A stretch of DNA of 61,311 nucleotides from an uncultured Planctomycetales bacterium (GTDB lineage: Bacteria > Omnitrophota > Gorgyraeia > Zapsychrales > Fredricksoniimonadaceae): positions 1 to 61,311 of the forward strand of contig CAZOXU010000011.1 in assembly GCA_964583975.1 (NCBI GenBank). The letters are read 5' to 3'. A program made the translations under genes and the position numbers. The first letter of the stretch is position 1, and every line of letters begins with the position of its first letter. Positions 1 through 61,311 of this stretch are shown here, in pieces. The notes under the pieces were generated by a model. That model had not been told where the DNA came from, made no database searches, and saw only the letters and a program-made list of their open reading frames with translations.

Positions 1-24
1 CCTTCAACCGCGATTCCACCACAT
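1..24. repeat. Terminal direct repeat, copy 1 (ccttcaaccgcgattccaccacat), identical to 61288..61311
   Basis: The first 24 nt of the window exactly equal the last 24 nt. Confidence 0.95.
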
Positions 25-616
25 ACGCTGTCCCTGCCTCGGCGTTCTCGTAAACCACCGCCTTCTCTGGAACGATCCACACCTTGTTAAAGGTATTCAC
101 TGGTATATTGGTTGTGTTGTACTTACTTTGGGCCTCTTCATAGATTCTCTTCCAAAACTTCTTTCCCACTTCATCTTCTGGATAAATGAGCGAGGCAGTG
201 ATTTGTTTGAGCATGTAGTCTTCTGCCAACAAATCTCGGCCCATCTCCGTTAAACCAAAGCTCTCTGGCACGATACGGTCTTTTTCGTAGGGAGATAGAT
301 TAACCCAGAGATCTCGCTCTGGCACGGTAAGGCTGGCGAGGAAATATTTGATGAGTCGATTGGCTTCATCATGTAGGGGCACAGCATGCTGTGCCCCTAC
401 ATCGCCCTGATCCATAATAAATTCAAATTGAAATGGATTATCCGGATGGACCTTGATGCCTTTCAAGATGGCTGGATTGACAGCGGGGCTGAGACTGACT
501 CGGACACCGGGTGTGGGTAAACGAATTTCCTGGGCCGAGGCAGGCAAAGGCCCAAAGGTATTAATTAAGAAAGCCACAAGGATGGCTATGTGGATTAATG
601 GGGTCGGTTTTCTCAT
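1..616 (-). CDS. 5' part (about 205 codons) of a giant-exoprotein family gene: signal peptide plus conserved N-terminal module; the ORF runs off the window start
   Basis: My own translation from the ATG at 616..614 reads MRKPTPLIHIAILVAFLINTFGPLPASAQEIRLPTPG...LWVNLSPYEKDRIVPE...NTFNKVWIVPEKAVVYENAEAGTAYVVESRLK. There is no stop before position 1. By eye it is clearly homologous to residues ~40-215 of the 33305..38098 protein. It is absent from the supplied ORF track because it has no stop in the window. Confidence 0.8.
   Translation of the reverse strand, partial: MRKPTPLIHIAILVAFLINTFGPLPASAQEIRLPTPGVRVSLSPAVNPAILKGIKVHPDNPFQFEFIMDQGDVGAQHAVPLHDEANRLIKYFLASLTVPERDLWVNLSPYEKDRIVPESFGLTEMGRDLLAEDYMLKQITASLIYPEDEVGKKFWKRIYEEAQSKYNTTNIPVNTFNKVWIVPEKAVVYENAEAGTAYVVESRLK
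373..400. repeat. 28-nt perfect GC-rich palindrome GTAGGGGCACAGCATGCTGTGCCCCTAC inside coding sequence
   Basis: The sequence is its own reverse complement. It shares the GTAGGGGC...GCCCCTAC termini with the 59-nt elements at 60939 and 61188. It encodes VGAQHAVPL in frame in a variable loop of the N-terminal module. Confidence 0.9.
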
Positions 617-3119: not shown

Positions 3120-3126
3120 CAAACTT

Positions 3127-3906: not shown

Positions 3907-3909
3907 AAA

Positions 3910-6241: not shown

Positions 6242-6245
6242 TCAA

Positions 6246-6749: not shown

Positions 6750-6777
6750 ACAACCCTCCTTGAGTTTGGTTAAATAA

Positions 6778-9204: not shown

Positions 9205-9265
9205 GCGGTGATTATAAAGTTTGTTATCTTCTGTGTCAACGAACATCACGGTTATTTTCCTTAAT

Positions 9266-16664: not shown

Positions 16665-16668
16665 GACA

Positions 16669-33304: not shown

Positions 33305-36300
33305 TTATACTTTCGCTAATAACTCTTCCCTACCAGGCACCAAACCTAACAAAGGTCGCATATCAACAATAGGTGTAATATTGAGAATTACTGGACGAAC
33401 GCCAGAAAAATCACCCGCCTGGAACTGCTTAATCATCGCAGGGTCAAAACGGATATCAATCTTCTGACCATCTACATCTATCTTCATATTCTTAGAATTA
33501 AGGTCGATACCACCCTTAGTATCATCATTCTTAGTTGCCATAGCATTATCTGAGAATTTAATTGTTCCACTCGCATTAATCTCTATTTCAACATTGTCTA
33601 AACGGACGGTATCTCCTCTTGTTAATCCATATTTCACTCGAAAAGCTTCAAAGAAATCTTCCAAAGCAATATTTCGACCAGTTTTATTAATAATACTCAC
33701 ATGGTCTCCAATTTGGAAAACTCGAGGATTAATTTGAACACTACTAGGAATAGTATTAGTACCGACCATGGCTGCATCGCTATTAAATTTCCCATCCTTA
33801 ATTAAACCGCTTTGAATTAATTCCTCATCACTTCGCTTCAAAAAAGCTACACCATCATCAATATTTTTTGGCTCCTTCAAATCATGAATATCTTCCCCAG
33901 AGCTTACAAATGCGGCCTTGGTTGATGGCAATTGAGTCACATCCCCTGTTACAGCTTCAAGATAAAAATATCCATCTTTAAACCGCAAATTAAAAGGCAA
34001 TTGATTTTTTAAAATAGTTCTTAATTTATCTACCGCATACACCAGTCTAAAAGCATTGTAGGGCGCACCTTTTTTACCTGCTTCATCTAAAAGTCCAACC
34101 AAGGCAGGACTCGCCTTCACATTGGATGTTTCAATGAGAAAGCTTCTGCCAGTTTTTGTGTTTTTCAAAACATTGCCACCTTTTTGTTTGCTAGGATTAT
34201 TCACCAGCTCTCCGACAACACCATAGCCTCGATCTATTTGGGCCAAAGCAAAGGCAATTTTATCAATACTAACAACACTGTCTTTGGAAAATTTAGTCAG
34301 ATCATTAATGCGGTGACTAGAGATAACCTCAAAATCAGAAAATTCATCAATTAAAGCCCCAGTTATATATTTTCGTTGGCCTTGGCTATCTAAACGAAAT
34401 GCTTGGCCATTTTCTGCTAATTGCATGAAATTATGGCCATGTCCATAAGGCACAGTAGGGCTATTAGGATCAAATTCTAAAACTCCATTGTTGAATTTAA
34501 ATCCATGAAAAGTTGGTTGAACAACAAAGAATATATTGGCAGGAGAAAATCCATAGAAGTTATTTCTGATGAAATCCTCTAAAACGTCTTTTTCGATATC
34601 AGCATTCACATTTACAATTATTTTTTGTTGAGTCAAAACTTCCTGAATATTTCTTTTATTGTCTTTAGCGAGCTGCTCTATGGCCAAACGATAAGCCAAA
34701 ATTTGTCGAGGCCCCATTCCTAGGCGAAGTTTGGCATCTGTAGCGCTAGCCTTACCTAATTCTTGAGCTAATTCCCAAATGTCTAAACCATACATCGGAC
34801 CTCTCTTCAATCGAGTAGCAGCACCAGCAAAAATAAATTGTGGAATATAAGCTCCATTTAACAAAGTATTCTTTGCATGCTGTTGAAATTCTGCTGCTTG
34901 ATCAGAACTCAAAAAGCTAGATAAACTAACAACATCATCAGCAAGTTTTAAATCATCAGCTTTGGATTGAGCATATATATTTGATCCATCGACAATTTTA
35001 TTAATCTCCCCATCTAAACGTTTAACCTCATCTACATTATTGGTAGTCACAGCTTGATAATAGGCATCCAATAGCGGCTGAATACTTGCTTTAACCGATA
35101 TTACTTTATCAGACAAAGCTTTTTCTAAGCTTGCAATAGGTTTTCCAACCATAGCTCTATCTAAATTCCTTACGCGAAGAAAATCCCCAATATTAGTACC
35201 TCCTTCAGATTGCCATTGATAAAAATCTCCTAAAAGGGTATTTGCATTCAAATCATCTCTCTCTGCTATTTCAGTGATTCTTTCCCTAACATTTTGAGAA
35301 ACTTCCTCGATTGATTTTGGCCGGCCACTTGCTTTAGCTTCAACCGTTCTTTCTTGAACAAAGGCTTGAAGATTATTATTTCCTGTAGATTGTATGGCAC
35401 GAAATACTTCTAAAAGCTTTCCTCGTTGAAGACCTGCCCCTTCTGCTTGCTGCCATATTCCTTCCATTTCCAAATCTTTCATTTCACTAGCTGGTTGCAG
35501 TATTTTATTTCTCACAGTAGTAATTTTAGCCAAAACAAAACTCCTTAAATCAGCCGCACCCGCCATAGATTGTCTTCTTTGAAATTCTAAAAGTAAACGG
35601 CCTCGGCTTAACCCCACATTTTCTGCCTGTTGCCAAATATCTTCGGTAACAGAAGTATTCGGCACATCACCACCATCAATATCTCCTTCATTTAATAATC
35701 GACTAGCAACAGCAGCAGCGACTGCTGCACCAACAGCGGAAGCATTCTCAACCTTTACAATCTCTACATCTTCTGGAGTAAAACCTTCTAATTTTAAAGC
35801 TTCCTCAAATCCTTGTTTCACTAATTCATTCTTCCAATAGACGCTGCCATCAATCACAATTTTCTTTTTTCCAGAAACTGTCACATTTTTTAAAACCTGA
35901 GCAATGGCTGAACCTAATAGAAGTCCAGATCTCTTAAGTAAAGTCTGGCTAATATTCTGCATTTCAAATGCTTCAGCTTCTGAAACAGAGATATCCTCTC
36001 CTAAATACTCCTTAATCAAACTAATTAATTCCAACTTGTCATTGGCAATAGCTAGCTTACCTAATAATACGCTCTCTAAATCATCCCATTTTGAACTTTG
36101 TGCAATTTGGAGGTAATTCCCTTCTTTCGCAGACTTGGCAAGATTTCTAATATTCTCACGCAAAAGCTGAACTAGATATTTTCCTGAAATCATCTTCTCA
36201 AACATTTGTTTTCCCTGAGGCTCTGAATCTCTCAAAACGACTTCATCGCTTTCAGTTCGTAAACTTTCGGGAATATTATTGGTCGAACCTGCCTCTAAAT

Positions 36301-38098
36301 TAATGATATTGCCCTGCGCATCTGTGATTGAAAAATTAGAACCTGTCCCTAAAATGATTCCACTGACAGCTCCAGGAGAAGCTAATTGAGTGGCAATCGT
36401 ATCGTTTAAGACGCCAACAACCTCTAATTTTCTATTATTAAGAGCTGTTTCTAACAATGCTCCTGGATTTTTATTTTGAATATCTTGAAGTTCCCAACCT
36501 TTAGCGAGACGTAAAACTGTTGCACCTCCCATAGATTGATGTGACATAGGAAAAGCAAAAGACAAACCAATCTTATAATCTTTCGATGTTTCTAAAGGTA
36601 ATTCCTTAATTTTGGAAGCCACAAAACTAAAAACATCTGCACTAGTTCTCATTTTTAACTCTTCAGGGAATTTTGCGTCTATTTGTTGAATGGTCGTAGG
36701 TTTTTGACCTGGCTGCATCCTTACTAAAACAATCTTTAAATTTGTTCCACTAAAATCAACTCCAATATAATCTCCAGATTCTCTTCCATTCGCAGGTTTA
36801 AAATATGAATTTAAATAACTCACCCCACCCACACCGCTTTTGCCATTTAATGTTGTTATTAAATTTTCCGCAAAAACATTAGACACTCTTCTAATCGATT
36901 CCGTATCCAACTCAAAACTACTTCTCATAGCTAAATCTGTTTTAGATTTCGGAGTCGTGACTCTTATATTAAAAAGACGTCCTTTTGCAGGATTTACGAT
37001 AAATCTAGCTGCATCGTTATCCCTAGGATTACTCGTTTGAGCTAGATCTAATTTTCCAAGCACCCCACCAGAGAAATATTTTCTTGGGATTACCTGTCCA
37101 TTTTGTACGTCTTCCTTAATATAGTTAAATACACCCTTCTTATACGCCTTTAAGTATTCCTTATAAATCTTCTCCTTAATGGTCTTATCTGCAGTGTCCA
37201 CCCCATTAACCTTAGCTTTATTGCTGTAAACTTGATTAAGCAACGCATCTTTAAGATTTTTCTTATACCAAGCTGCTAAAATCATCGAGTGAAAAATTTG
37301 ACGGAGATTAGCAAAATTCTTTCCCGTATTAACTTCTTTTTCCAGCTCAGGAAGAACGATATCGCGAACGATCTGGGATCCTAAATTATTGGTATCTTGG
37401 GCAACCTGATTCACGGTTTGTTTCTGCGAGGCCAAATAATCTTCTTCCAACATCACCTTCAAATGGCTTGCCACAACGAATGCTGTGTTATCATGCACAA
37501 AAACTTTAGCCTTATCAGCCACAATCCATACCTTATTAAATGTATTTACTGGAATCTCAGTTGATCCATAGAGTGCCTGAGCTTTAGCGTAAACCTTGTT
37601 CCAAAACGCCTTGCCTAATTCTTTCTCGGGATAGATCAATGATGCTGTTAATTGCTTGAGGATATAGTCTTGGGCCAGCATGTCACGTCCCATATCGGTC
37701 TGTCCTAATTCATTAGGAATAATGCGGTCTTTTTCATAAGGTGAAAGGTTAACCCATAAATTTTCTTCGGGAATGGTTAACGAAGCTAAAAAATATTTGA
37801 TGAGCTTTTCAGATTCTGTTTTTAATTGCTCTTGACCGTTGGACAAACCTGAATTTCCTGTATCCACAATAAAATCAAATAAGATGGGGTTCTCTGGATG
37901 AACGCGCAAGCCCTTAACCATCATAGGCACATAATTCTCGGTTAAACTGATCATGGTACCTGGTATGGGAAGACCCAATTCTGCGGGAGATTGAGCTAGA
38001 GCTCGAACTGGAGAAAGAAAGCTAACAATAAAACATACATTAATAACAATTGTTAAACAACGAAAAGCAAACGATTCTTTTTGTCGAGGATTCAACAT
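33305..38098 (-). CDS. Giant modular exoprotein 1 (1,597 aa): signal peptide, shared N-module, hexokinase domain, 3x repeat, UDP-sugar pyrophosphorylase-like domain, small module, shared C-module
   Basis: Uninterrupted 4.8-kb ORF. Its N- and C-terminal modules are homologous to the 54890..61311 ORF. Domain motifs are listed in the sub-features and findings. Confidence 0.88.
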   Translation of the reverse strand: MLNPRQKESFAFRCLTIVINVCFIVSFLSPVRALAQSPAELGLPIPGTMISLTENYVPMMVKGLRVHPENPILFDFIVDTGNSGLSNGQEQLKTESEKLIKYFLASLTIPEENLWVNLSPYEKDRIIPNELGQTDMGRDMLAQDYILKQLTASLIYPEKELGKAFWNKVYAKAQALYGSTEIPVNTFNKVWIVADKAKVFVHDNTAFVVASHLKVMLEEDYLASQKQTVNQVAQDTNNLGSQIVRDIVLPELEKEVNTGKNFANLRQIFHSMILAAWYKKNLKDALLNQVYSNKAKVNGVDTADKTIKEKIYKEYLKAYKKGVFNYIKEDVQNGQVIPRKYFSGGVLGKLDLAQTSNPRDNDAARFIVNPAKGRLFNIRVTTPKSKTDLAMRSSFELDTESIRRVSNVFAENLITTLNGKSGVGGVSYLNSYFKPANGRESGDYIGVDFSGTNLKIVLVRMQPGQKPTTIQQIDAKFPEELKMRTSADVFSFVASKIKELPLETSKDYKIGLSFAFPMSHQSMGGATVLRLAKGWELQDIQNKNPGALLETALNNRKLEVVGVLNDTIATQLASPGAVSGIILGTGSNFSITDAQGNIINLEAGSTNNIPESLRTESDEVVLRDSEPQGKQMFEKMISGKYLVQLLRENIRNLAKSAKEGNYLQIAQSSKWDDLESVLLGKLAIANDKLELISLIKEYLGEDISVSEAEAFEMQNISQTLLKRSGLLLGSAIAQVLKNVTVSGKKKIVIDGSVYWKNELVKQGFEEALKLEGFTPEDVEIVKVENASAVGAAVAAAVASRLLNEGDIDGGDVPNTSVTEDIWQQAENVGLSRGRLLLEFQRRQSMAGAADLRSFVLAKITTVRNKILQPASEMKDLEMEGIWQQAEGAGLQRGKLLEVFRAIQSTGNNNLQAFVQERTVEAKASGRPKSIEEVSQNVRERITEIAERDDLNANTLLGDFYQWQSEGGTNIGDFLRVRNLDRAMVGKPIASLEKALSDKVISVKASIQPLLDAYYQAVTTNNVDEVKRLDGEINKIVDGSNIYAQSKADDLKLADDVVSLSSFLSSDQAAEFQQHAKNTLLNGAYIPQFIFAGAATRLKRGPMYGLDIWELAQELGKASATDAKLRLGMGPRQILAYRLAIEQLAKDNKRNIQEVLTQQKIIVNVNADIEKDVLEDFIRNNFYGFSPANIFFVVQPTFHGFKFNNGVLEFDPNSPTVPYGHGHNFMQLAENGQAFRLDSQGQRKYITGALIDEFSDFEVISSHRINDLTKFSKDSVVSIDKIAFALAQIDRGYGVVGELVNNPSKQKGGNVLKNTKTGRSFLIETSNVKASPALVGLLDEAGKKGAPYNAFRLVYAVDKLRTILKNQLPFNLRFKDGYFYLEAVTGDVTQLPSTKAAFVSSGEDIHDLKEPKNIDDGVAFLKRSDEELIQSGLIKDGKFNSDAAMVGTNTIPSSVQINPRVFQIGDHVSIINKTGRNIALEDFFEAFRVKYGLTRGDTVRLDNVEIEINASGTIKFSDNAMATKNDDTKGGIDLNSKNMKIDVDGQKIDIRFDPAMIKQFQAGDFSGVRPVILNITPIVDMRPLLGLVPGREELLAKV
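33899..34921 (-). other. UDPGP/UAP-like nucleotide-sugar pyrophosphorylase domain within giant protein 1
   Basis: FAGAATRLKRGPMYG (compare AGGQGTRLG), VPYGHGHNF (compare P-x-G-x-G) and NPSKQKGGNVL (the K-GG region). Residues ~1060-1400. Confidence 0.55.
35699..36901 (-). other. Hexokinase-family (actin-fold sugar kinase) domain within giant protein 1
   Basis: Ordered motifs IGVDFSGTNLKIVLV, GLSFAFP, LAKGW, VLNDTIAT, ILGTGSN, NLEAGS, QMFEKMISGKYL, IDGSVY and ASAVGAAVAAAVA (residues ~400-800). Confidence 0.85.
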
Positions 38099-38257: not shown

Positions 38258-39826
38258 TTATAAGAGTTTATTTAAATTGTCGCGCGCAGGGATATAGTTA
38301 GGATTAATTCCTAAGGCTGACTTCAAAATAGCTTCTGCTTGGACCTTCTCTCCTTTAAGAATATGACATACCGCCACATTATTAAGCAAAACTACATCTT
38401 TCGGGGTTATGCCTAAGGCTTTATTAAGAGCATCAATTGCTTCATCCAAACGTCCATTTTGCATATAAATGCTAGATAAATCAGAATAAATTTCTTTGAT
38501 ATACCCCAAATAAAAATCTCGGGCCTTCTCATTGCTGGCTTTCTTTACATAGGTCTGCATGATTGCAAGGGCTCTTTGGTAAGAAACGATGGCAGCATCG
38601 TATTGCTTATCACCATAATAAGTCTTAGCTAAAAGAATATGCCCCCGAGCAAATTTATTCTCATAAGCCATGGTCCGTTCAAATAAAATTACCTGACTCC
38701 TCCAAAAAGTGTTTTGGTAAATGGCTAAACCCATTAAATAAACACAAATCATCACACTCAACCCTAAAATCATTTTAGGAGATGTGATACGTTTAAGAAC
38801 TATGGCCAAGACCAACACAATACCTACCATCGGTAGATAAAGAAAATGTTCGGCTGTTAAAATCAAAGAATACTCATTAATGAGAGGCACTATATTTAAT
38901 ACAGGAAAAAGACAAACAATAAACCAAAGTAGACCAAATACGATATCTTTTCGAGTATCAACAAATTTCCTTATAAAAATGTACAAACTAGCTGCCAGTA
39001 TCCCTAAACCTAAGAAGCCACCCCGAGGGTCTGCGAGAATATCGGTGTTACGATAATAATGAAGATCATTTGGCAAAATCAACAAACGTAGATACATGAC
39101 AATGGTATTAGGAATCGAAAGAAGTCTTAAATAAAACTCTTTGGGAGAAGCAAGGATATCATCTATCAAATGTGAACCGCTCACTACCTGACGAAGTATT
39201 AGAAATCCTACGGTTAAAATAGTAAAAATCAACCACATCACAAAACGGTCTTTTTTGTTCCTATACCAATCGATCAGAACAATCAAAGGCAATACAATAA
39301 TAGCCTGCTCCTTGGTTAGAAGAGCAAAAACAAAATAGACACAAGTTAATATAGGACGTTGTTGAAGATATCCTCGTAAAGTGAGTAATATAAAAAATGT
39401 ACAGGCTAAATTAGAAAATCCTGATATGCATGCGACCGCTTCTGTTTGTATAGGATGAATTAAAAATAACAAACTGATCCCAAAGGTCATCATCTGGGAG
39501 AATTTCAAGGTCCTTAATAACGAGCATAATAAAAGACCATTGAAAAGATGAACGATCACATTGACGCTATGAAAATAGAACGCATTAAACCCAAAGAAAT
39601 AATATTGCAGACGGTTAAGAAATTCTAAGAACGGCCTATAGTACGAATTAAGTCCAGATCCTAGCGCTGCACTATTATTGGGTTGGAAAAAGATCTCAGA
39701 TAAGTTTAAACCACTAATTTGAGTATTTTGGAGAATAAAAATAATATCATCGTGAACGAACGGATGATTGAGGGCGTTAAAGAAAACTAAAAATGTAGCC
39801 GTCGCAAGAATCAGAAGCAAAGGCAT
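38258..39826 (-). CDS. TMTC-like polytopic membrane protein with C-terminal TPR repeats (GT-C-fold protein O-glycosyltransferase-like, DUF1736 type)
   Basis: N-terminal FNALNHPFVHDDIIFILQN motif typical of TMTC-type proteins, about 10 TM helices and then TPR repeats (AKTYYGDKQYDAAIVSYQRAL...). Confidence 0.68.
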   Translation of the reverse strand: MPLLLILATATFLVFFNALNHPFVHDDIIFILQNTQISGLNLSEIFFQPNNSAALGSGLNSYYRPFLEFLNRLQYYFFGFNAFYFHSVNVIVHLFNGLLLCSLLRTLKFSQMMTFGISLLFLIHPIQTEAVACISGFSNLACTFFILLTLRGYLQQRPILTCVYFVFALLTKEQAIIVLPLIVLIDWYRNKKDRFVMWLIFTILTVGFLILRQVVSGSHLIDDILASPKEFYLRLLSIPNTIVMYLRLLILPNDLHYYRNTDILADPRGGFLGLGILAASLYIFIRKFVDTRKDIVFGLLWFIVCLFPVLNIVPLINEYSLILTAEHFLYLPMVGIVLVLAIVLKRITSPKMILGLSVMICVYLMGLAIYQNTFWRSQVILFERTMAYENKFARGHILLAKTYYGDKQYDAAIVSYQRALAIMQTYVKKASNEKARDFYLGYIKEIYSDLSSIYMQNGRLDEAIDALNKALGITPKDVVLLNNVAVCHILKGEKVQAEAILKSALGINPNYIPARDNLNKLL

Positions 39827-54889: not shown

Positions 54890-57800
54890 TTATGATGCCG
54901 CTGCCAGCTGGGTGACTGGTGTCTGGGTACTGATCCCTAAAAACTTCCTGAGATCAGTCATGGGCTGGATATTGATAATCACGGGATAAAAACCTGGGGC
55001 GTTTTGCAGTTGGGCAAGCTGTGCTGGGTCTAAATTAAACTTTATACCTCCATTAGCATTTTGGGTTTGTAGAAATTTGTCAGAGGTAAGGTCAATACCA
55101 CCTTTTTTGATCATTGCGCTATCTCTGACTAATGAACCTTTCTTAAATAAACTTGAAGCATTAGTCATAGCCGCATCTTCTGCCTTAGACATATCTAAAA
55201 TCTTCGGAAGGATTTCAACACCCAAAGACAATATTCCTGACAGATGCGCGCTAGGCGATCCTGGAATACCTTTTCCTTGAAAATAACTCGGCGGCTTTCC
55301 TAAAGAGCCGAAAAGTCTCTGACTATCTTCGGCAGGCGTCAACTCATCATCTACGACAGTGGCAAGCAAAACATTCTGACCATCCTTGGATGGCACTGCA
55401 GAAGCCAATTGATCCAAGTTTAAATCTCTCATAACTGAATCGACATCTTCTGGAACGAGCCCTTTTTGACGGAATAATTCTTGAATACCCGCATATCGAT
55501 CTCCCTGACTCCAAAGAAGGTGAGAATAATTAACGATAGGGACTATTGTGAAAAGATTTCGCACTAATGGATCTATCAGGTAGGTGCTTGTTGCCACACT
55601 ACCCGTAATGCTTTGCCCTGTTACAGATATTCTAGAGGGATCTATTTCTGGACGATCAGCAAGCCATCGTACAGAAACCAAGGTATCGGCAATCGATTGC
55701 ATAATAAAAGTTTTAAACTTTTCTGCATCAAAATCCAAAGCCACATATCGTTGTACAGAATTCATTCCTTGTGTTCCAGCAGCTGAACGTTTAGCGTATA
55801 AAGGCATTCCTACTTCCAATACCGCAACGCCTTTGCTAGCTAAATAAATAGAAATAAGACGGGCCAGCGTATCTTGTTCATAAAAACTACACAAAACGAC
55901 TCCGGGTAAAAGTTTTCCATCAGTTGTTTTAGGAAGGAAATATCTCGCATAAACATGTTCTGAATTAGGAAAGGCGGATTTATTAAAGGCAGATCGATAG
56001 GTTAGTTCTTGAATAGAAAACGGCTGAGCTTCAGGTGGAGATGTCTTTAATCTTTCTACCATTTGAAGCAGATCAGCAAGCAAAGGAGAATTTTTCATCA
56101 ATTTCTTTAACTGACCGAGAATATAATTAAGAGCTGCATCATCAGTTAAGGCCAAAATTTCTTCTTGTGTCAATGAGCGCAATTGATAATCAACGGTGTT
56201 AATATTTCCCTGAGGATCTCGATCTATCTTTAAATTCGTATCAGTTGGAAGAAATGCGATGTTCTGAGATAGATTTAAACCTGTTAGTTGAGATAATTCT
56301 TCTACAACATCTCTACCTTGTGCCATCGCAGCATCTTGCTTAGGATCGCTCTCCGCTTCCCAATTACCTTTAAAATCTGGAACGACTTCAAAATCATAAT
56401 CAAAAATGTCAAAAGTAATGGTTGATTCAATTAATACCGGTACTGGAAACTCTCCTTCGCGAGAGGGCGCCAACCATTGTAAATCAAAATTTCCAAGAAC
56501 ATCTTGGTCTAAATGAATACCCACCTTATTCAAACGTGCGACAAGAAGTTGAAAATCATGCCGAATGAGTTCATAAACATACGTTTGAAATTCTTCCCAT
56601 CTATTAGGATCTATTCCATAGGCCGCTAAGACATCACGATACCTTTCATCTTCTTTCAACAAGTCATAAGCTTGTTCACGTCCAGAATTATTGGAAAAGA
56701 ACGAAGAACTACCGATACGGGTACTCTGAATCCAGGATGGAGATCTAGAAAAATCTGGATCAGGTTCAAACTTACCGGTTTTTAAATTTCCTCGAAATAA
56801 AAAACGACTTTCGTAAGATTTTCCGTCTAATTTAAAAGCGTTAAAAACAGATTCCATTCCTCCAGAATCATAAATTCTTTCATTCAAAACAACTAATTTC
56901 CATAAACCATCTAAAATCTCAACGGCATCGGTTGTTGAGGTATCTAATGTAAAATGCATACTGTTTAAATCTGGGTCTCTATAAGGAGTAATTTTGTAGT
57001 TATCAAAATACTTAATGACTTTCTCTTGATAAGGATCTTGAAATGAAGGTGAATTGGTATAAGAAAATGTGATGGTCAGATTAGAATCTTTTCCTTTATG
57101 AATATAAAAAATTCCTCTTCCATAGGAACCCGTGTTGGGTTTGAAAATAACTGGCAAAGAAATCTCACCAGACACAATTTGTTGGGCTACTTCTCTAAAA
57201 TTAGCGACATCTCTTGGGTCTGTTAAAGCTTGTAAATAGGATTCGTCTGAAAAACGCATTTCGTCTAATTCTTGAATCACATCAGAATCTCTTTTAAAAG
57301 CAACAAACCAATCGGGCTGACGAACCTTACCGCCCTTAAGTAATTCCCTCATCCCCCACTTACTAGCCAAAAGTCGCTGTATATCAAGAATACTAACCTT
57401 GGCGCTTTGCATTGCTGCATCAACTTTGTAAACTTCTCGCTTCATAGAATCATAAAAAACCGGCTCAGCATTACTCAACTTCTTCCTTCTCCAATTGATG
57501 ATTCCCACTTGAGGGTCAACCATAGATTGGACACCTAGATTAACCATAAGGGCACTCGCTTGAATGCTATGGACAAAAGCTACAACGATGATCTTCCTTC
57601 CTCCATTAAATTTCTTTCTTAATTTCATCCTAGCTTTAAAATCATCCAATCCTTTCTTAGTTCGAATCAGAAGATTTAAATAACTTTCCGAAGGAGAATG
57701 ACCTGAAATACTAGGTAATGTTGCAGTCGCATCCATGCCTCTATTAAAACGATATAAGAACTCTCGCACACCTCTTCCTTCTTTTTGAATATCTGCTACC

Positions 57801-60800
57801 CCTTTTTCATCGAGCAATCCCAAGGATATCTCATCTAAAAAGCTTTCCACATTTGGTTCAATCTTATGCCCTGTTTTATCTTTAACTAGATCCAGAAAAT
57901 CTTGGGCAGTTTGTTGAGTACGATCTTTGGAACTAGTTATAACAACCACATCTGCATTAGATTCAATGTCAGGCCTTAGTTTAGAAAACAAAATCTTTGC
58001 CCCCGCTAGTGACTGTTCCTTACCTTTTAGAGTTAATAAATTTCTTCTTCCTGGAATTAAAATACCTGCATTAGAGTATGTTTGCCCATGTCTTTCCCAA
58101 TAAAAACTAAAATCATCTTGCGAAATTGAAACAAGAGGATCTATTCCATTGAATTTAATTTGACCAGATCCATTAACTAAAACCTTCTCATCTAACTCTT
58201 TTAAGGGTTTCCATTCCGATGGTCTGAGTAAATAAAATCGTGAGATTCCTTTAAAATTTCTCAATACCACCTCTCCTAATTTAATTTCATTAGGATTAAT
58301 TTTCGCAAATCGAATACGCAGCACCGCACCGTCTTCATCTCGCAAAACATCCCTTCTGTCTAAAAGACTCACCTCCGCTTCAGGATGAATTTTCTGAGCA
58401 TAAGAACGCATACTTAATAGACCTTCACCTTTTCCTCCAATTCTGTGATTACCAGCTAACTTTTGAGCTAATTTCTCTTCAGTAGTTTCAGCCTCTTTGA
58501 TAGATAATCCATTGTTTACTACATCAATATTTACAAAACCATCTTTTTCATAAACATAAAAATCAATTTTTAAACTTTTGTTGTCTGGTATTTTACCAAT
58601 GTCTATTCCATGTATAAAAGCATCCGCAGAATTTTCTATGGCATGAATAAATATAGATTCTAACAAAGAAACCACAAGTCTTTGATGACCGTCTTTATGG
58701 ACGACCAGCATTTTCTGGGATCCAAAATCTGAACTCTGATTTCCTAAAATAGAGGCAATTTTGTGATCCATAGGAAGGACGATTTCTTCTAATCTTCCCC
58801 ATACTCTTTGTAGTCCTTCTTTTTTAGAAAGGCTGGTTAATATTGGGAAATCTTCTTTAGAAAATTCGATCGTTCCTAAAGAAAATAACTTTTCCGCCTC
58901 CATCGCTGCATCTTTTGTGGTCGATCTTAATAAGGATTCCAAATCTTGTCTTACGCTCTTATCTTTAGGATCAAGCTCTATTGCTTTTCGAAAGGCCGCT
59001 TCTGCCCTCTTAAAATCATGTAACTTGGTTAGCACGCGTCCAAGACTTTTATAGGCATTTGTATACCGGGGGCTCTCTTCTATTGCTTTTAAATAAGCCT
59101 CCTCCGCTCCTTCTAAGTCACCTTTATTTTCCAATAAAAATCCTAAATTGTAACGTAGCCAAGAATTTCTTGAATCAAGCTTTATGCCTGTTCGAAAAGA
59201 CGCTTCAGCTCGTGCTAAATCACCCTTCTTCATCAATAGAAGTCCAAGATTGTTATAAGCGATTTGGTATTTAGGATTTATCTTTAATGCTGTTAAATAT
59301 GCTGTTTCAGCTCCTGTTAAATCACCTTTACTGTCTAACAAATCCCCTAAAGAAACGTATGCACTCATATCTTTAGGATCAAGCTCTATTTCTTTATGAT
59401 GCGCAGCCTCTGCTCCTGCCAAGTCTCCTTTATGCATCAGAAAAATTCCTAAATTCTGATAAAAACTTCCAATTATTCCTAATTGCCACGGTAAAATCCT
59501 AACAACCTGCAAATCATTCTTTCCTTTAAAATCAAATGTTAAACCTTCATTAGAGATATCTTTTTCGATTGGCAATTTCACAATAAAACTAAAATCTAAT
59601 TCTCCCGAAGGCCTCAACTCCTCAGAAGGTTCTGCGATATAGTATCGTCCATCAGATAACCTAACTAATATAAAGACATGATCTATTTCTGAAACCAGGT
59701 AAACCTTCTTAATTCCAATTGCATCCAAGTACAATGCCATTAAAGCACTTCTGCCGACACAATTAATTTCCTTAGTAAGTCGTATCCGAATTGGAGAGGC
59801 TTCATTTAAAGCAGAATAATCTTTATCTGTCCACCCGTGCATTTTGATAATTAACCGCATAATTTTATTGATGGCTTGGATTTCAAGCTCTGCACCAGCT
59901 AAAGGCGATCTCTCTCTTGCCTTTTGTATTTCTGCCTTTAATTGCTCTGTATCAATCTGATCAAAACGCTTAGCTTTCCTTTGAAACCCAAACGACTCTA
60001 ATGAAGAGAGCTTTGGTGACTCATTCTTAGATCTTGCTAAATCTTCTTTTAATAAATGCATCCCTCTTAAATAAGTTTGATTTTCTATATCAATCTGGAC
60101 ATGGCGTACGGTCAATTGAATGGCTTTGGTCATAAGAGTCTGCAGCTCATCAAGTTTCTGTGAATCTTTTAACCCAAGCCATTCTTTAATCTCTCTTTCT
60201 TGCTCCAAATCTAGGGGCTTTTGATTTGAAGAAACATGATCCACATGAAATCCATCCGGGATTTTCAAGTCACTATTGTCTTGAGCCAAAATGTATCCTA
60301 AAGCATCAAATAGACCAATAACCTGTTCATGTTCTTGAGTTTTTTGATTCTCATATCTCTGAGCCAAATACCTTGCAGCGTCTCTAAACTTTCCAGAAAT
60401 TCTAGGCAAGGTTCGTTCCTTATCGCTCAAAGGAAGATCCCTAATCTTTTGTGTTAATTCTATAGTTTCTTTAACGTTTATGTCTTCTGGCAACTTGAAA
60501 TGATAAAAAATTTCCCCATTGGTATTCGCAAGCTTTTCAGGTACTAGAAAATCAACCGCTTCTTGACCTCGCGGAACAAATTGCACAACAATATGATCTG
60601 TTAATGGCAGCCAGGCGTATTGATCCTTCTGTCCTTTCTGCGAGCCCGCAAAACGCTTGCGTTCTTGCTCAGTTTCCCATACTGGTTTACTTAAAACTTG
60701 ATCAAGTTTAACTTCTATTCTCATTTTCCCTGCAAGACTAGTCATGGCCGAATCACCAATCACAGATGGGTCTTGACTAATTCTCATAGCTTGAGAAGGT

Positions 60801-61311
60801 TGCAACAACATTCCTCCAGAGAAATATTTGCGAGGCACAGGCTGCTGGGTTATAGGATCAGGCTCTTCTTTGATGTAGTTGTACACGCCTTTTTTGAATG
60901 CTTGGAGGTACCGTTGATAAATTGATTCAACATCCTCGGTAGGGGCAGGCCCCTGTGCCTGCCCGGCTTGAGGGCGACCACGGGGGGTCGCCCCTACGAT
61001 TTTATTCTTATCCGTATACACCCGAGCCAGGATGCTGTCCTTTATTTTCTTCTTGTACCACGTAGCTAGGATTAAAGAATTGTAAACTTGTCTAAGTTGG
61101 GCGAAGTTTTGTCCTTCATTGACTTCGCGGGTGAGTTCGGGGATGACGATTTCACGGATGATGTTATTTCCCAATATATTGGTATCCGTAGGGGCAGGCC
61201 CCTGTGCCTGCCCTTCTTGAGGGCGACCACGGGGGGTCGCCCCTACACCGTTTTTGGATTCCGATAAATAATCTGCCTCTAGCATCACCTTCAACCGCGA
61301 TTCCACCACAT
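54890..61311 (-). CDS. Giant modular exoprotein 2 (>2,139 aa, 5' end off the window edge and apparently continued at 616..1): shared N-module, unknown region, transglutaminase-like Cys protease, TPR, GHKL ATPase-like, histidine phosphatase, ATP-grasp-like, alpha/beta hydrolase-like, shared C-module
   Basis: Uninterrupted 6.4-kb ORF open at the window end. The first codon in the track is an edge GTG, not a real start. Its N- and C-terminal modules are homologous to the 33305..38098 protein. Confidence 0.88.
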   Translation of the reverse strand, partial: VVESRLKVMLEADYLSESKNGVGATPRGRPQEGQAQGPAPTDTNILGNNIIREIVIPELTREVNEGQNFAQLRQVYNSLILATWYKKKIKDSILARVYTDKNKIVGATPRGRPQAGQAQGPAPTEDVESIYQRYLQAFKKGVYNYIKEEPDPITQQPVPRKYFSGGMLLQPSQAMRISQDPSVIGDSAMTSLAGKMRIEVKLDQVLSKPVWETEQERKRFAGSQKGQKDQYAWLPLTDHIVVQFVPRGQEAVDFLVPEKLANTNGEIFYHFKLPEDINVKETIELTQKIRDLPLSDKERTLPRISGKFRDAARYLAQRYENQKTQEHEQVIGLFDALGYILAQDNSDLKIPDGFHVDHVSSNQKPLDLEQEREIKEWLGLKDSQKLDELQTLMTKAIQLTVRHVQIDIENQTYLRGMHLLKEDLARSKNESPKLSSLESFGFQRKAKRFDQIDTEQLKAEIQKARERSPLAGAELEIQAINKIMRLIIKMHGWTDKDYSALNEASPIRIRLTKEINCVGRSALMALYLDAIGIKKVYLVSEIDHVFILVRLSDGRYYIAEPSEELRPSGELDFSFIVKLPIEKDISNEGLTFDFKGKNDLQVVRILPWQLGIIGSFYQNLGIFLMHKGDLAGAEAAHHKEIELDPKDMSAYVSLGDLLDSKGDLTGAETAYLTALKINPKYQIAYNNLGLLLMKKGDLARAEASFRTGIKLDSRNSWLRYNLGFLLENKGDLEGAEEAYLKAIEESPRYTNAYKSLGRVLTKLHDFKRAEAAFRKAIELDPKDKSVRQDLESLLRSTTKDAAMEAEKLFSLGTIEFSKEDFPILTSLSKKEGLQRVWGRLEEIVLPMDHKIASILGNQSSDFGSQKMLVVHKDGHQRLVVSLLESIFIHAIENSADAFIHGIDIGKIPDNKSLKIDFYVYEKDGFVNIDVVNNGLSIKEAETTEEKLAQKLAGNHRIGGKGEGLLSMRSYAQKIHPEAEVSLLDRRDVLRDEDGAVLRIRFAKINPNEIKLGEVVLRNFKGISRFYLLRPSEWKPLKELDEKVLVNGSGQIKFNGIDPLVSISQDDFSFYWERHGQTYSNAGILIPGRRNLLTLKGKEQSLAGAKILFSKLRPDIESNADVVVITSSKDRTQQTAQDFLDLVKDKTGHKIEPNVESFLDEISLGLLDEKGVADIQKEGRGVREFLYRFNRGMDATATLPSISGHSPSESYLNLLIRTKKGLDDFKARMKLRKKFNGGRKIIVVAFVHSIQASALMVNLGVQSMVDPQVGIINWRRKKLSNAEPVFYDSMKREVYKVDAAMQSAKVSILDIQRLLASKWGMRELLKGGKVRQPDWFVAFKRDSDVIQELDEMRFSDESYLQALTDPRDVANFREVAQQIVSGEISLPVIFKPNTGSYGRGIFYIHKGKDSNLTITFSYTNSPSFQDPYQEKVIKYFDNYKITPYRDPDLNSMHFTLDTSTTDAVEILDGLWKLVVLNERIYDSGGMESVFNAFKLDGKSYESRFLFRGNLKTGKFEPDPDFSRSPSWIQSTRIGSSSFFSNNSGREQAYDLLKEDERYRDVLAAYGIDPNRWEEFQTYVYELIRHDFQLLVARLNKVGIHLDQDVLGNFDLQWLAPSREGEFPVPVLIESTITFDIFDYDFEVVPDFKGNWEAESDPKQDAAMAQGRDVVEELSQLTGLNLSQNIAFLPTDTNLKIDRDPQGNINTVDYQLRSLTQEEILALTDDAALNYILGQLKKLMKNSPLLADLLQMVERLKTSPPEAQPFSIQELTYRSAFNKSAFPNSEHVYARYFLPKTTDGKLLPGVVLCSFYEQDTLARLISIYLASKGVAVLEVGMPLYAKRSAAGTQGMNSVQRYVALDFDAEKFKTFIMQSIADTLVSVRWLADRPEIDPSRISVTGQSITGSVATSTYLIDPLVRNLFTIVPIVNYSHLLWSQGDRYAGIQELFRQKGLVPEDVDSVMRDLNLDQLASAVPSKDGQNVLLATVVDDELTPAEDSQRLFGSLGKPPSYFQGKGIPGSPSAHLSGILSLGVEILPKILDMSKAEDAAMTNASSLFKKGSLVRDSAMIKKGGIDLTSDKFLQTQNANGGIKFNLDPAQLAQLQNAPGFYPVIINIQPMTDLRKFLGISTQTPVTQLAAAS
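55310..55942 (-). other. Alpha/beta-hydrolase-like domain in giant protein 2
   Basis: LLPGVVLCSFYEQ..., the IDPSRISVTGQSITGSVA nucleophile-elbow-like segment, and the later VVDDELTP. Confidence 0.42.
56390..57172 (-). other. ATP-grasp-like domain in giant protein 2
   Basis: LPVIFKPNTGSYGRGIFYI (K-P-x-x-G-S-x-G-x-GI) followed by a ~250-aa alpha/beta region. Weak, motif-level only. Confidence 0.4.
57515..58117 (-). other. Histidine phosphatase (phosphoglycerate-mutase-like) domain in giant protein 2
   Basis: The FYWERHGQTYSN RHG motif, with a downstream IVVAFVHSIQASAL second-His region. Confidence 0.5.
58385..58657 (-). other. GHKL (HATPase_c-like) ATP-binding domain in giant protein 2
   Basis: N-box-like IHAIENSADA, G1-like VVNNGLSI and G2-like GGKGEGLLSM, in the canonical order. 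Confidence 0.45.
58940..59482 (-). other. Five to six tandem TPR repeats in giant protein 2
   Basis: Recurrent 34-aa units: GDLAGAEAAHHKEIELDPKD, GDLTGAETAYLTALKINPKY, GDLARAEASFRTGIKLDSRN, GDLEGAEEAYLKAIEESPRY, HDFKRAEAAFRKAIELDPKD. Confidence 0.85.
59636..59830 (-). other. Transglutaminase-like / papain-fold cysteine protease core in giant protein 2
   Basis: INCVGRSALMALYLDAIGI (Cys517) ... IDHVFILVRLSDGRYYIAEP (His544, then an acidic residue). This is the typical C-H-D/E spacing of transglutaminase-like domains. Confidence 0.5.
60939..60997. repeat. 59-nt GC-rich double-hairpin element, copy A, in frame in giant gene 2
   Basis: GTAGGGGCAGGCCCCTGTGCCTGCCCGGCTTGAGGGCGACCACGGGGGGTCGCCCCTAC. 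Stems GGGCAGGC/GCCTGCCC and GGGCGACC/GGTCGCCC, with terminal inverted repeats GTAGGGG/CCCCTAC. It encodes VGATPRGRPQAGQAQGPAPT. Confidence 0.92.
61188..61246. repeat. 59-nt GC-rich double-hairpin element, copy B, in frame in giant gene 2
   Basis: Identical to copy A except for 2 nt in the linker (CCCTTCTTGAGG versus CCCGGCTTGAGG). It encodes VGATPRGRPQEGQAQGPAPT. Confidence 0.92.
61288..61311. repeat. Terminal direct repeat, copy 2, identical to 1..24
   Basis: The last 24 nt of the window exactly equal the first 24 nt. Confidence 0.95.

What the first reader, a model, noticed from the sequence alone, without database searches (positions are those of the whole stretch)
37064..38098. Conserved ~300-aa N-terminal module after a signal peptide defines a paralogous family (three pieces in this window)
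Residues ~40-345 of giant 1 align along their whole length with two other pieces taken together. One is the orphan fragment at 616..1. The other is the first ~165 residues of the ORF ending at 61309. Shared blocks in giant 1 include LPIPG..., HPENPILFDFIVDTG, LIKYFLASLTIPEENLWVNLSPYEKDRIIP, MGRDMLAQDYILKQLTASLIYPE, IPVNTFNKVWIV, HLKVMLEEDYL, IVLPELEKEVN.G.NFA.LRQ, AWYKK, YLKAYKKGVFNYIKE and IPRKYFSGG. The blocks are strongly conserved while the loops between them vary, and those loops host the GC-rich elements. I cannot assign the module to any named family.
Basis: seen in the sequence. Interest (0 to 1): 0.7.

Follow-up and report, generated by a model that had tools for sequence, protein, structure and literature searches.

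The report
Unnamed export module bracketing swappable cargo
A strongly conserved, unnamed ~310-residue domain behind a signal peptide, paired with a short conserved tail at the far end of the same protein, brackets freely exchanged enzyme "cargo" in thousands of exported proteins of the uncultivated phylum Omnitrophota; its distant relatives are Streptomyces cell-surface proteins.

Summary
Residues 36-345 of the 1597-aa protein (33305..38098, minus strand) align with the two contig-end pieces at 51% identity (BLASTP E 6e-126).

The window is a whole chromosomal contig from an Omnitrophota metagenome-assembled genome (MAG). Its ends share an exact 24-bp repeat inside the module, so the assembly broke in paralogues.

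The module matches no Pfam, NCBIfam or PDB sequence family. A confident AlphaFold model (pLDDT 82) has no Foldseek neighbour in PDB or BFVD. The family is very large: 8395 clusters at 50% identity.

In intact genes it always comes with a Sec-type signal peptide and a ~65-aa C-terminal "GGIDL" module. The stretch between them (0.2-4.5 kaa) is unrelated from gene to gene. It is built from cytoplasm-type domains such as hexokinase, PGM, UDPGP, adenylate kinase, helicases and HTH.

At a syntenic locus in a related MAG both modules are 76% identical, but the cargo is entirely different. A D-x-A-M motif, 22-fold enriched, marks the domain boundaries.

Distant homologues (hhalign 99.9%) are Streptomyces surface proteins, three of six with LAxTG sortase signals.

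Best reading: a non-catalytic extracytoplasmic scaffold or trafficking domain for exchangeable cargo. The function itself is inferred, not shown.

The parts
33305..38098 (-). Giant 1, an intact family member of 1597 aa: signal peptide, N-module, cargo, C-module
   Evidence: ORF list and translation. It is the representative P0165, on an NCBI contig of 61311 nt.
37994..38098 (-). Sec-type signal peptide of giant 1 (aa 1-35): basic n-region, hydrophobic core aa 8-35, ALA|QS site
   Evidence: Hydropathy scan. The same pattern is seen in 82 of 87 family members.
37064..37993 (-). N-module of giant 1 (aa 36-345), from LPIPG to RKYFSGG
   Evidence: BLASTP E 6e-126 to the paralogue. 1385 hits. AF2 pLDDT 82, pTM 0.72. 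No family or fold match.
35708..36925 (-). Cargo 1 of giant 1: eukaryote-type hexokinase (aa 392-797)
   Evidence: Pfam PF00349 1.2e-32 and PF03727 1.8e-25. Human HK2 E 2e-49. Motifs DFSGTN, LSFAFP, NDT, GTGSN and DGSVY are readable.
33776..35146 (-). Cargo 2 of giant 1 (aa 985-1441): possibly UDP-sugar pyrophosphorylase-like (tentative)
   Evidence: Only a weak PDB hit to UAP1, E 0.089. UDPGP is a recurrent cargo elsewhere in the family.
33308..33550 (-). C-module of giant 1 (aa 1517-1597): DNAM, then KGGIDL, FDPAM, PVILNITP and LLGL
   Evidence: Motif scan, alignment A3, local HMM. The AF2 model of this piece alone is mostly coil, pLDDT 70, pTM 0.24.
36926..36937 (-). D-x-A-M boundary motif (DLAM, aa 388) between the N-module and the hexokinase. 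Further copies lie at 35150-35161, 33767-33778 and 33539-33550.
   Evidence: The motif occurs at 1.58 per kaa in the family versus 0.071 per kaa in non-family neighbours.
54890..61311 (-). Right-end family gene, lacking its 5' ~198 codons: last two-thirds of the N-module, then TPR, His_Phos_1, ATP-grasp-like and AXE1-like cargo, then the C-module
   Evidence: Translation, Pfam and NCBIfam, PDB.
60812..61311 (-). N-module portion of the right-end gene (VVESRLK to RKYFSGG)
54893..55123 (-). C-module of the right-end gene (DSAM-IKKGGIDL to LGI)
1..616 (-). Left-end family gene fragment: signal peptide (530-616) plus the first ~176 residues of the N-module. It runs off the contig.
   Evidence: Translation. 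The N-module HMM hits W_2_616.
1..24 (.). Exact 24-bp terminal direct repeat (the other copy is 61288-61311), lying inside the N-module coding sequence
60939..60997 (-). GC-rich 59-nt palindromic element, REPIN-like (GTAG-hairpin, then hairpin-CTAC), in frame in N-module loop 2. An identical copy at 61188-61246 sits in loop 1.
   Evidence: Both loops are low-pLDDT or variable regions of the model.

Best explanation
The module is a real, previously unnamed extracytoplasmic protein domain of about 250-310 aa with a mixed alpha/beta fold.

In Omnitrophota it forms the front half of a two-part bracket. A Sec signal peptide and the N-module open the protein. A ~65-aa GGIDL module closes it. Between them sits cargo that is exchanged wholesale between paralogues and even between orthologous loci.

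I infer that the N-module is a non-catalytic scaffold or trafficking domain. After Sec export, probably together with the C-module, it holds or routes the variable cargo at the cell envelope or surface of these host-associated bacteria. It would play the role of the constant part of a polymorphic surface or secreted protein.

Shown: the family, the export signal, the N+C co-occurrence, the cargo turnover, and the surface-anchored Streptomyces relatives.

Inferred: the scaffold or trafficking role, any contact between the N- and C-modules, and processing at D-x-A-M.
For: Family and novelty:
- 51% identity between the paralogues, E 6e-126.
- 8395 clusters with E<=1e-3 in 1.84 billion representatives.
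- No Pfam, NCBIfam or PDB sequence hit.
- AF2 pLDDT 82, with no Foldseek hit better than E 0.1 in PDB or BFVD.

Export:
- Basic n-region, h-region and an AxA site are present in 82 of 87 members.
- 32 of 60 complete members, including giant 1, have no further hydrophobic segment above threshold.

Bracket:
- 63 of 71 3'-complete ORFs end with GGI[DN][LFM] 53-105 aa before the stop.
- 75 ORFs carry both HMMs. ORFs with only one are mostly cut or disrupted genes.
- 106 of 140 independent representatives have both.

Constant versus variable parts:
- N-module pairwise identity has a median of 58% and a minimum of 47%.
- The cargo gives only 51 BLAST HSPs in 99 kaa.
- Most Pfam families seen in the cargo occur in only one member, and none in more than 3 of 29.

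Cargo swap at one locus:
- L003 is collinear with the window over 11 genes.
- Its family gene has an N-module 76% identical and a C-module 76% identical.
- Its cargo is unrelated: PGM instead of hexokinase.

Surface location:
- Streptomyces homologues match at hhalign 99.9%, E 4.7e-31.
- They have a signal peptide, and the module sits next to a Pro/Thr linker and an LA[DH]TG + TM + RRRR sorting signal in 3 of 6.

Non-catalytic reading:
- No Cys, His or Ser-nucleophile is invariant.
Against: - No localisation or expression data exist.
- The cargo is made of enzymes that need ATP, NTPs or DNA (hexokinase, adenylate kinase, SNF2/DEAD helicases, HTH, receiver domains). That is hard to reconcile with action in a periplasm or outside the cell unless the proteins are delivered into another cell.
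- A subset of members has a hydrophobic segment just after the N-module. This could put their cargo back in the cytoplasm.
- No secretion or sorting gene is a conserved neighbour in 80 loci.
- Many invariant charged and aromatic residues, and an invariant but poorly modelled WVNLSPYEKDR loop, would also fit a ligand-binding or catalytic site.
- The C-module alone does not fold in AF2, and contact between the N- and C-modules could not be tested.
Confidence: 0.5

Rival explanations
1. Delivery platform. The N- and C-modules together form a translocation or secretion device that injects the cargo into host or prey cells. The cytoplasm-type enzymes then work with host ATP. D-x-A-M, and possibly the Gly-Gly joints, are processing sites that release individual cargo domains. 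The logic is that of MARTX toxins, or of the hexokinases that microsporidia secrete.
For: - The cargo is overwhelmingly cytoplasm-type, yet sits behind a Sec signal.
- The hexokinase motifs are intact.
- D-x-A-M is enriched 22-fold, lies between Pfam domains and never inside them, and precedes GGIDL by a median of 17 aa, within 25 aa in 59% of members.
- Omnitrophota are reported as host-dependent or predatory (PMC10066038).
- Cleavage of Omnitrophota giant proteins has been proposed, but no cleavage sites are known (10.1101/2023.11.21.568195).
- Secreted hexokinases are documented in microsporidia (PMC6460350, PMC6152459).
Against: - No protease, pore-forming or secretion component is linked to the family.
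- The Foldseek hits to ClyA-family toxins (NheA, MakA) are insignificant: E>2, TM ~0.13.
- Some members, such as L003, P0175 and P0198, have no D-x-A-M in their cargo.
- Streptomyces relatives are anchored surface proteins, not injected ones.
Confidence: 0.17
2. The N-module is itself the functional unit: an enzyme or a specific binding domain, for example for a glycan, lipid or envelope polymer. The variable regions are then accessory.
For: - Conservation is extreme: 38 invariant columns across 89 sequences, including E, D, N, R, Q, W and Y, and the WVNLSP.E..R loop is shared even with Streptomyces.
- That conserved loop is modelled with low confidence, as binding loops often are.
Against: - No similarity to any enzyme or binding fold.
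- No invariant Cys, His or Ser.
- The cargo parts are themselves complete enzymes.
Confidence: 0.2
3. Membrane-anchored cytoplasmic multi-enzyme proteins. The N-terminal hydrophobic stretch is an uncleaved anchor, and the cargo works inside the cell.
For: - The nature of the cargo.
- A 2026 preprint reads many long Omnitrophota proteins as inner-membrane-anchored with cytoplasmic domains.
- Some members have a second hydrophobic segment after the N-module.
Against: - The positive n-region and the AxA c-region predict N-in/C-out topology and cleavage.
- 32 of 60 complete members, including giant 1, have no hydrophobic segment above threshold beyond the signal peptide, and few have one directly after the N-module.
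- In Streptomyces homologues the module lies between a signal peptide and an LAxTG or TM anchor, so it is outside the cell.
Confidence: 0.1
4. Assembly or annotation artefact, or chance similarity.
For: - The contig ends lie inside the module.
- Many database hits are fragments.
Against: - Intact ORFs occur on contigs of 0.2-1.3 Mb from many independent studies.
- E-values reach 1e-183.
- The short hit lengths appear to reflect how the word-index search selects candidates, since all hits in both searches were under about twice the query length (versus 36). This is an inference, not something documented for the tool.
Confidence: 0.01

Closest known systems
Streptomyces megaplasmid 'hypothetical proteins' (e.g. 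WP_121549542.1 from S. fungicidicus p1, WP_251091514.1, WP_266737726.1)
   Same: - True homologues of the module core, from KYFLASLT/WVNL(S/N)P to Y(F/I)xGG: tblastn E 4e-36, hhalign 99.9%.
- They have a signal peptide and are coupled to a variable region.
- GG(I/V)D(F/L) motifs flank the core.
   Different: - The module is in the C-terminal half, next to a Pro/Thr linker and an LAxTG or TM anchor.
- There is no separate C-terminal GGIDL module.
- Single-copy, about 760-830 aa.
- Also uncharacterised, so they give location but not function.
MARTX toxins and polymorphic toxin systems (CdiA, Rhs)
   Same: Conserved trafficking parts combined with exchangeable functional cassettes, and short motifs that mark the cassette junctions (cf. 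VENN in CdiA). This comparison rests on established knowledge of those systems.
   Different: - No RTX repeats, CPD, TPS, Rhs or immunity genes.
- The variable part is central, not C-terminal.
- The cargo is housekeeping-type enzymes, not toxins.
Two-partner secretion TpsA proteins (TPS domain)
   Same: A conserved domain of about 250-300 aa directly after a Sec signal peptide at the N-terminus of very large exported proteins.
   Different: - The predicted fold is helix-rich alpha/beta, not a beta-helix.
- No PF05860 hit.
- A TpsB-like neighbour was seen once but was not recurrent in 80 loci.
Omnitrophota giant proteins ('Archaeovorins'; West-Roberts et al. 2023 preprint; 2026 complete-genome preprint)
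   Same: - Same phylum.
- Signal peptide plus an unannotated N-terminal region.
- Overlapping cargo repertoire: TPR, HAD, PGM, hexokinase, HATPase, methyltransferases.
   Different: - Those proteins are 10-147 kaa with many TM helices. This family is 0.6-5 kaa, usually with only the signal peptide.
- Whether the giants start with this module was not tested.
- Neither paper describes the module, the GGIDL tail or D-x-A-M.
Secreted hexokinases of microsporidia
   Same: A eukaryote-type hexokinase placed behind a secretion signal in a host-dependent organism (PMC6460350, PMC6152459).
   Different: An analogy for the cargo only. There is no relation to the N-module.

Membership tests
Any Pfam-A / NCBIfam family | Profile HMM match above the curated cut-off | tested here: not met
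   No hit for the module in giant 1 or giant 2. Across 89 members at E<=1, the only result is sub-threshold DUF896 in 15 members, best E 0.0023, on one helix.
Any solved structure (PDB) or viral predicted structure (BFVD) | Sequence-profile or fold similarity | tested here: not met
   hmmsearch against PDB gives only a low-complexity hit, E 0.12. Foldseek best E is 0.27 (PDB) and 0.12 (BFVD), with TM<0.2. AlphaFold DB was not available.
TpsA / TPS domain (type Vb secretion) | Right-handed beta-helix TPS domain (PF05860) after the signal peptide | tested here: not met
   No Pfam hit. The AF2 model has eight helices and three beta-hairpins.
TpsA / TPS domain (type Vb secretion) | Adjacent TpsB (ShlB/POTRA_2) transporter gene | tested here: not met
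   One case (P0029 locus). No recurrent neighbour cluster in 80 loci. The window's Omp85 gene (6778-9306) is a five-POTRA BamA, 24 kb away.
Type IX secretion cargo | C-terminal ~80-aa beta-sandwich CTD (TIGR04183 / PF18962) | tested here: not met
   No Pfam or NCBIfam hit on the C-terminus. The AF2 model of the C-module is mostly coil, at low confidence, so the fold part of this test is inconclusive.
Exosortase / sortase-type C-terminal sorting signals | Signature motif, then a TM helix and a basic tail at the extreme C-terminus | tested here: not met
   Omnitrophota C-modules end in LLGL plus a polar tail, with no TM helix or basic cluster. The Streptomyces homologues, in contrast, do carry LAxTG + TM + RRRR.
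Classical autotransporter (type Va) | C-terminal 12-strand beta-barrel of about 270 aa (PF03797) | tested here: not met
   The conserved C-terminal part is only about 65 aa, and there is no Pfam hit.
MARTX | Gly-rich A/B/C repeats, a cysteine protease domain, and a T1SS signal | tested here: not met
   No RTX or Peptidase_C80 hits in 72 full-length members.
New family defined here (N-module + GGIDL C-module bracket) | Sec signal peptide + N-module (WVNLSPYE...RKYFSGG) + GGI(D/N)(L/F/M) module within about 105 aa of the stop | tested here: met
   Giant 1 meets all three. The right-end gene has the N-module (partial) and the C-module. The left-end fragment has the signal peptide and the start of the N-module.
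Omnitrophota giant 'Archaeovorin' proteins | More than 10-30 kaa, many TM helices, and the same N-terminal region | not tested
   No giant-protein sequence was available. The largest member seen with both modules is 4969 aa.

The most novel reading that the evidence does not exclude
The N-module and the GGIDL C-module are the two halves of one ancestral surface domain, split by insertion of cargo. They re-associate as a clasp. This creates a phylum-wide, cargo-swapping effector platform that uses an undescribed post-Sec route.

Cytoplasm-type enzymes (hexokinase, PGM, UDPGP, adenylate kinase, helicases) are cut out at D-x-A-M sites and act in or on host cells.

Support so far is only suggestive:
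- In Streptomyces a GGIDF hairpin resembling the C-module lies directly upstream of the core (hhalign 25%, E 8e-4).
- There the chain runs straight through 'GGVDL/F' at the point where Omnitrophota proteins have 'FSGG' followed by cargo.
Probability: 0.15. Interest if true: 0.85.

Novelty: categorically new. Interest (0 to 1): 0.62.

Why it matters
Omnitrophota are widespread, uncultivated, ultra-small bacteria thought to live on other cells. Most of their large exported proteins are unannotated.

A single conserved N/C bracket that marks thousands of them gives four things:
- A handle to find the exported cargo repertoire in any genome.
- Concrete boundaries (FSGG, D-x-A-M, GGIDL) for cutting these proteins into testable pieces. 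The giant-protein literature says it lacks such boundaries.
- A candidate new sorting or display system in a diderm phylum.
- An explanation for why these genomes assemble badly, since contigs break in the module.

The link to Streptomyces gives a culturable organism in which the domain could be studied.

Tried and rejected
- **True 61-kb circular replicon or phage.** Rejected, because the gene content is core chromosome and there is no phage hit.
- **Internal repeat** between the first hairpin of the N-module and the C-module. Rejected: hhalign probability 1.3%. The Streptomyces upstream hairpin against that N-module hairpin gives 1.4%.
- **Conserved neighbour genes.** Clustering the flanking ORFs of 80 loci gave only generic families: receiver domains, ABC ATPases and TPR membrane proteins, in at most 16 loci.
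- **D-x-A-M versus homology boundaries.** There were too few cargo HSPs (23 usable) for a firm test. The trend was 26% of HSP starts within 15 aa of a motif against 0% for random positions.
- **C-module search with a single sequence.** Only 4 hits. The profile search returned only fragments of up to 203 aa. The word-index tool seems to return only hits under about twice the query length, which also explains the '<=547 aa' hits.
- **Looking beyond the contig ends.** Giant 1 and its neighbour are not on record in the contig index. The end sequence is not in the metagenome or viral collections.
- **Full-text search of the held PMC/bioRxiv library** for GGIDL, and reading of three Omnitrophota papers. 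The module is not described there. Subscription-journal papers such as Kizina et al. 2022 are not in that library and were not checked.
- **UDPGP assignment of giant 1 aa 985-1441.** It remains weak, E 0.089.
Full report
**1. Observation**

RKYFSGG ends at nt 37064, which is aa 345. The stated coordinates therefore cover the signal peptide plus the module.

BLASTP of this N-terminus against the two contig-end pieces joined gives 184/364 identities (51%), E 6e-126.

The two end pieces share an exact 24-bp terminal direct repeat, 1-24 = 61288-61311. They join in frame through the peptide VVESRLK.

The window is a whole NCBI contig of 61311 nt, and it carries core chromosomal genes:
- LpxI, LpxA, LpxC-FabZ, LpxD, Skp and a five-POTRA BamA
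- DnaB, Pth, L25, Prs, GlmU, IspE and HisG
- Def, lipoyl synthase and glutamate synthase

A true 61-kb circle is therefore implausible. The contig most likely begins and ends inside two different paralogues, at a stretch they share.

**2. What organism, how big a family**

The module retrieves 1385 proteins in the word-indexed search. Of the roughly quarter of listed hits that carry a source name, nearly all are labelled Candidatus Omnitrophota.

An exhaustive profile search of 1.84 billion cluster representatives finds 8395 clusters at E<=1e-3 and 6790 at E<=1e-30. Among the 150 best hits listed, lengths run from 420 to 4969 aa.

The 80 best are all from Omnitrophota MAGs, some under coarse 'Planctomycetales' labels. 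Each genome carries several copies, and tandem arrays of two or three are common.

**3. Not a known family or fold**

- Pfam-A and NCBIfam give nothing for the module.
- Scanning 89 members at E<=1 gives only a sub-threshold DUF896 match on one helix.
- A profile search of all PDB sequences gives nothing.
- AlphaFold2 with an 89-sequence alignment gives a confident model: pLDDT 82, pTM 0.72. It has three beta-hairpins, five helices of 15-33 residues and three shorter ones.
- Foldseek finds no neighbour better than E 0.27 in PDB or 0.12 in BFVD, with TM below 0.2.
- AlphaFold DB could not be searched.
- The Omnitrophota literature I could search or read does not describe the module, the GGIDL tail or the motif below.

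**4. Anatomy of the proteins**

N-terminus. 82 of 87 members show a basic n-region, a ~20-residue hydrophobic core, an AxA-type site (YAQ, AHA, AQA, ALA), and then the conserved L-x-L-P-x-P-G-x-M-V. This is an ordinary Sec signal peptide.

C-terminus. 63 of 71 3'-complete ORFs have GGI(D/N)(L/F/M) 53-105 residues before the stop. Two more have near variants, and three of the rest contain masked bases.

With local HMMs, 75 ORFs carry both modules.
- The N-only ORFs are mostly cut by a contig or locus end or disrupted, for example by an IS66 insertion. A few, such as L049:9156-11768, remain unexplained.
- The C-only ORFs are either 5'-cut or the downstream half of a split gene.
- In an independent set of 140 representatives, 106 carry the C-module, always within 61 residues of the end. 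Those without it are shorter and look truncated.

The C-module alone does not fold in AlphaFold: pLDDT 70, pTM 0.24, mostly coil.

**5. The middle is cargo, and it is exchanged**

N-modules are 47-95% identical pairwise (median 58%). C-modules have a median of 34%, and the two co-vary (Mantel r 0.56). The regions between them give only 51 BLAST HSPs in 99,000 residues.

In two samples of 43 and 29 full-length members, most Pfam families in the cargo occur in a single member, and none in more than three of 29. They include:
- HD, HEAT, TPR and PGM/PMM
- UDPGP, receiver domains and ABC1 kinase
- methyltransferases and M48 and M3 peptidases
- LpxC, adenylate kinase, SNF2/DEAD helicases and PLP enzymes
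- hexokinase, metallophosphatase and HTH

In this window:
- Giant 1 carries a eukaryote-type hexokinase (Pfam 1e-32; human HK2 E 2e-49), with the phosphate, sugar and catalytic motifs readable in the sequence.
- Giant 1 also has a weakly UDPGP-like region, E 0.089.
- The right-end gene carries TPR, histidine phosphatase, an ATP-grasp-like region and an AXE1-like esterase.

The clearest case of exchange is a syntenic locus. Locus L003 from a related MAG is collinear with window 47751 down to 38098 over 11 genes, at 56-91% identity, and has a family gene at the same position. Its N-module is 76% identical and its C-module 76% identical. Its 1775-aa cargo (phosphoglucomutase) shares nothing with giant 1's 1160-aa cargo.

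Within that same genome, two paralogues have 93% identical N-modules but lengths of 2230 and 653 aa. This points to gene conversion or recombination in the constant parts.

**6. A boundary motif**

D-x-A-M, often D-A/S-A-M, occurs 219 times in 137 kaa of family proteins, against 15.7 expected from shuffling. That is 1.58 per kaa, against 0.071 per kaa in 225 kaa of neighbouring non-family ORFs.

- In giant 1 the motif sits at aa 388 (before the hexokinase, which starts at 392), 980, 1441 and 1517 (ten residues before GGIDL).
- In the right-end gene the copies lie between the Pfam domains and never inside them.
- 73% of members have the first copy within 80 residues after FSGG.
- Some members lack the motif.

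Whether it is a processing site, a linker cap or a recombination joint is unknown.

**7. Surroundings**

The family genes sit among housekeeping genes. Giant 1 lies between a TPR membrane protein and a TM-anchored coiled-coil protein followed by an aminotransferase. The right-end gene is followed by thioredoxin, PanD and Def.

Clustering the flanking ORFs of 80 loci shows no conserved partner. A ShlB-type gene near one member is not recurrent.

**8. Relatives outside the phylum**

tblastn against plasmids finds six Streptomyces megaplasmid 'hypothetical proteins', best E 4e-36. Profile-profile comparison with the Omnitrophota alignment gives probability 99.9%, E 4.7e-31. It covers the core from KYFLASLT/WVNL(S/N)P to Y-x-x-GG.

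These 760-830-aa proteins are arranged as follows:
- a signal peptide
- a variable N-terminal half
- the module
- a Pro/Thr-rich linker
- in three of six, LA(D/H)TG plus a TM helix plus RRRR

From established knowledge, that last element is the class E sortase sorting signal of actinomycetes. The other three end in a TM helix and a basic tail. So in a cultivable organism the module is an extracellular, envelope-proximal domain of surface proteins. They too have no Pfam, NCBIfam or PDB match.

In Streptomyces the core is flanked by two GG(I/V)D(F/L) motifs.
- The upstream one, with its hairpin, resembles the Omnitrophota C-module (hhalign 25%, E 8e-4, suggestive only). It does not resemble the Omnitrophota N-terminal hairpin (1.4%).
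- The downstream one aligns exactly where Omnitrophota proteins have FSGG followed by cargo.

This is compatible with the N- and C-modules being parts of one unit split by the cargo. It does not prove it.

**9. Mechanism**

Shown:
- export signal
- constant N and C brackets
- wholesale cargo exchange
- surface location of the homologous domain

Inferred, at about 0.5: the N-module is a non-catalytic scaffold or trafficking domain that, with the C-module, presents or routes variable cargo at the envelope.

The cytoplasm-type cargo is the main tension in this reading. It favours either delivery into other cells (rival, about 0.17; analogous to MARTX toxins or to the hexokinases microsporidia secrete) or an unexpected topology (about 0.1). 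The strong conservation of charged and aromatic residues also keeps a binding or catalytic role for the module itself alive (about 0.2).

**10. Verdict**

The module is a new domain family with no detectable relative among described families or solved folds. It is part of a distinctive bracket architecture that is abundant in Omnitrophota. Its function remains to be shown.

Noticed in passing
window 1-24 and 61288-61311: Exact 24-bp direct repeat at the two contig ends, inside the coding sequence of the N-module. The contig could be mistaken for a circular element or a DTR virus, but its genes are core chromosome.
   Followed up: yes
window 60939-60997 and 61188-61246 (-): Two identical 59-nt GC-rich elements (GTAG + hairpin GGGCGACC/GGTCGCCC, spacer, hairpin GGGCAGGC/GCCTGCCC + CTAC), resembling an inverted REP pair (REPIN). 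They are inserted in frame as 'GATPRGRPQ(E/A)GQAQGPAPT' in two variable loops of the N-module. The same loop (aa ~198-265) carries GC-rich, often palindromic inserts in 13 of the 98 homologous ORFs examined from other genomes (e.g. L018, L019, L065, L076, L063).
   Followed up: partly
window 36926-36937, 35150-35161, 33767-33778, 33539-33550 (giant 1); six copies in the right-end gene: A D-x-A-M tetrapeptide recurs at domain boundaries. It is 22-fold enriched in the family over neighbouring genes. It may be a processing or junction site.
   Followed up: partly
L003:9827-16516 versus window 33305-38098: At a locus collinear over 11 upstream genes, the family gene keeps its N- and C-modules (76% identity each), but the cargo is completely replaced: phosphoglucomutase instead of hexokinase.
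   Followed up: yes
window 35708-36925 (-): A eukaryote-type hexokinase domain (E 2e-49 to human HK2) with intact catalytic motifs, inside a protein that has a Sec signal peptide.
   Followed up: partly
L083:6726-9047, L084:6771-9050, L085-L088: Streptomyces megaplasmid proteins homologous to the module. Three of six carry an LA(D/H)TG + TM + RRRR sortase-type sorting signal. All are annotated as hypothetical.
   Followed up: partly
window 38258-39826 (-): A TPR-containing protein lies directly upstream of giant 1. Pfam finds only TPR repeats at aa 375-518, and the N-terminal ~370 aa are unassigned. The multi-TM character is inferred by eye from the homologue L007:1248-2894, not tested here. 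It is conserved in synteny with L003, and homologues lie in five other fetched loci (L003, L007, L026, L044, L045).
   Followed up: no
window 16065-16120: Another GC-rich palindromic stretch (GCCTGCCTGTCCGGCAGGCAGGCCTGCC), inside the ORF with GHMP-kinase domains (15768-16763).
   Followed up: no
window 2307-9306 (-): A complete lipid A / outer-membrane assembly block (LpxI, LpxA, LpxC-FabZ fusion, LpxD, Skp, BamA). This shows the organism is a diderm with LPS.
   Followed up: no
L001:10001-20935: A family gene split by an IS66 insertion. The N-module ORF of 449 aa is followed by IS66 genes, and an 825-aa ORF with the C-module lies 7 kb downstream.
   Followed up: partly
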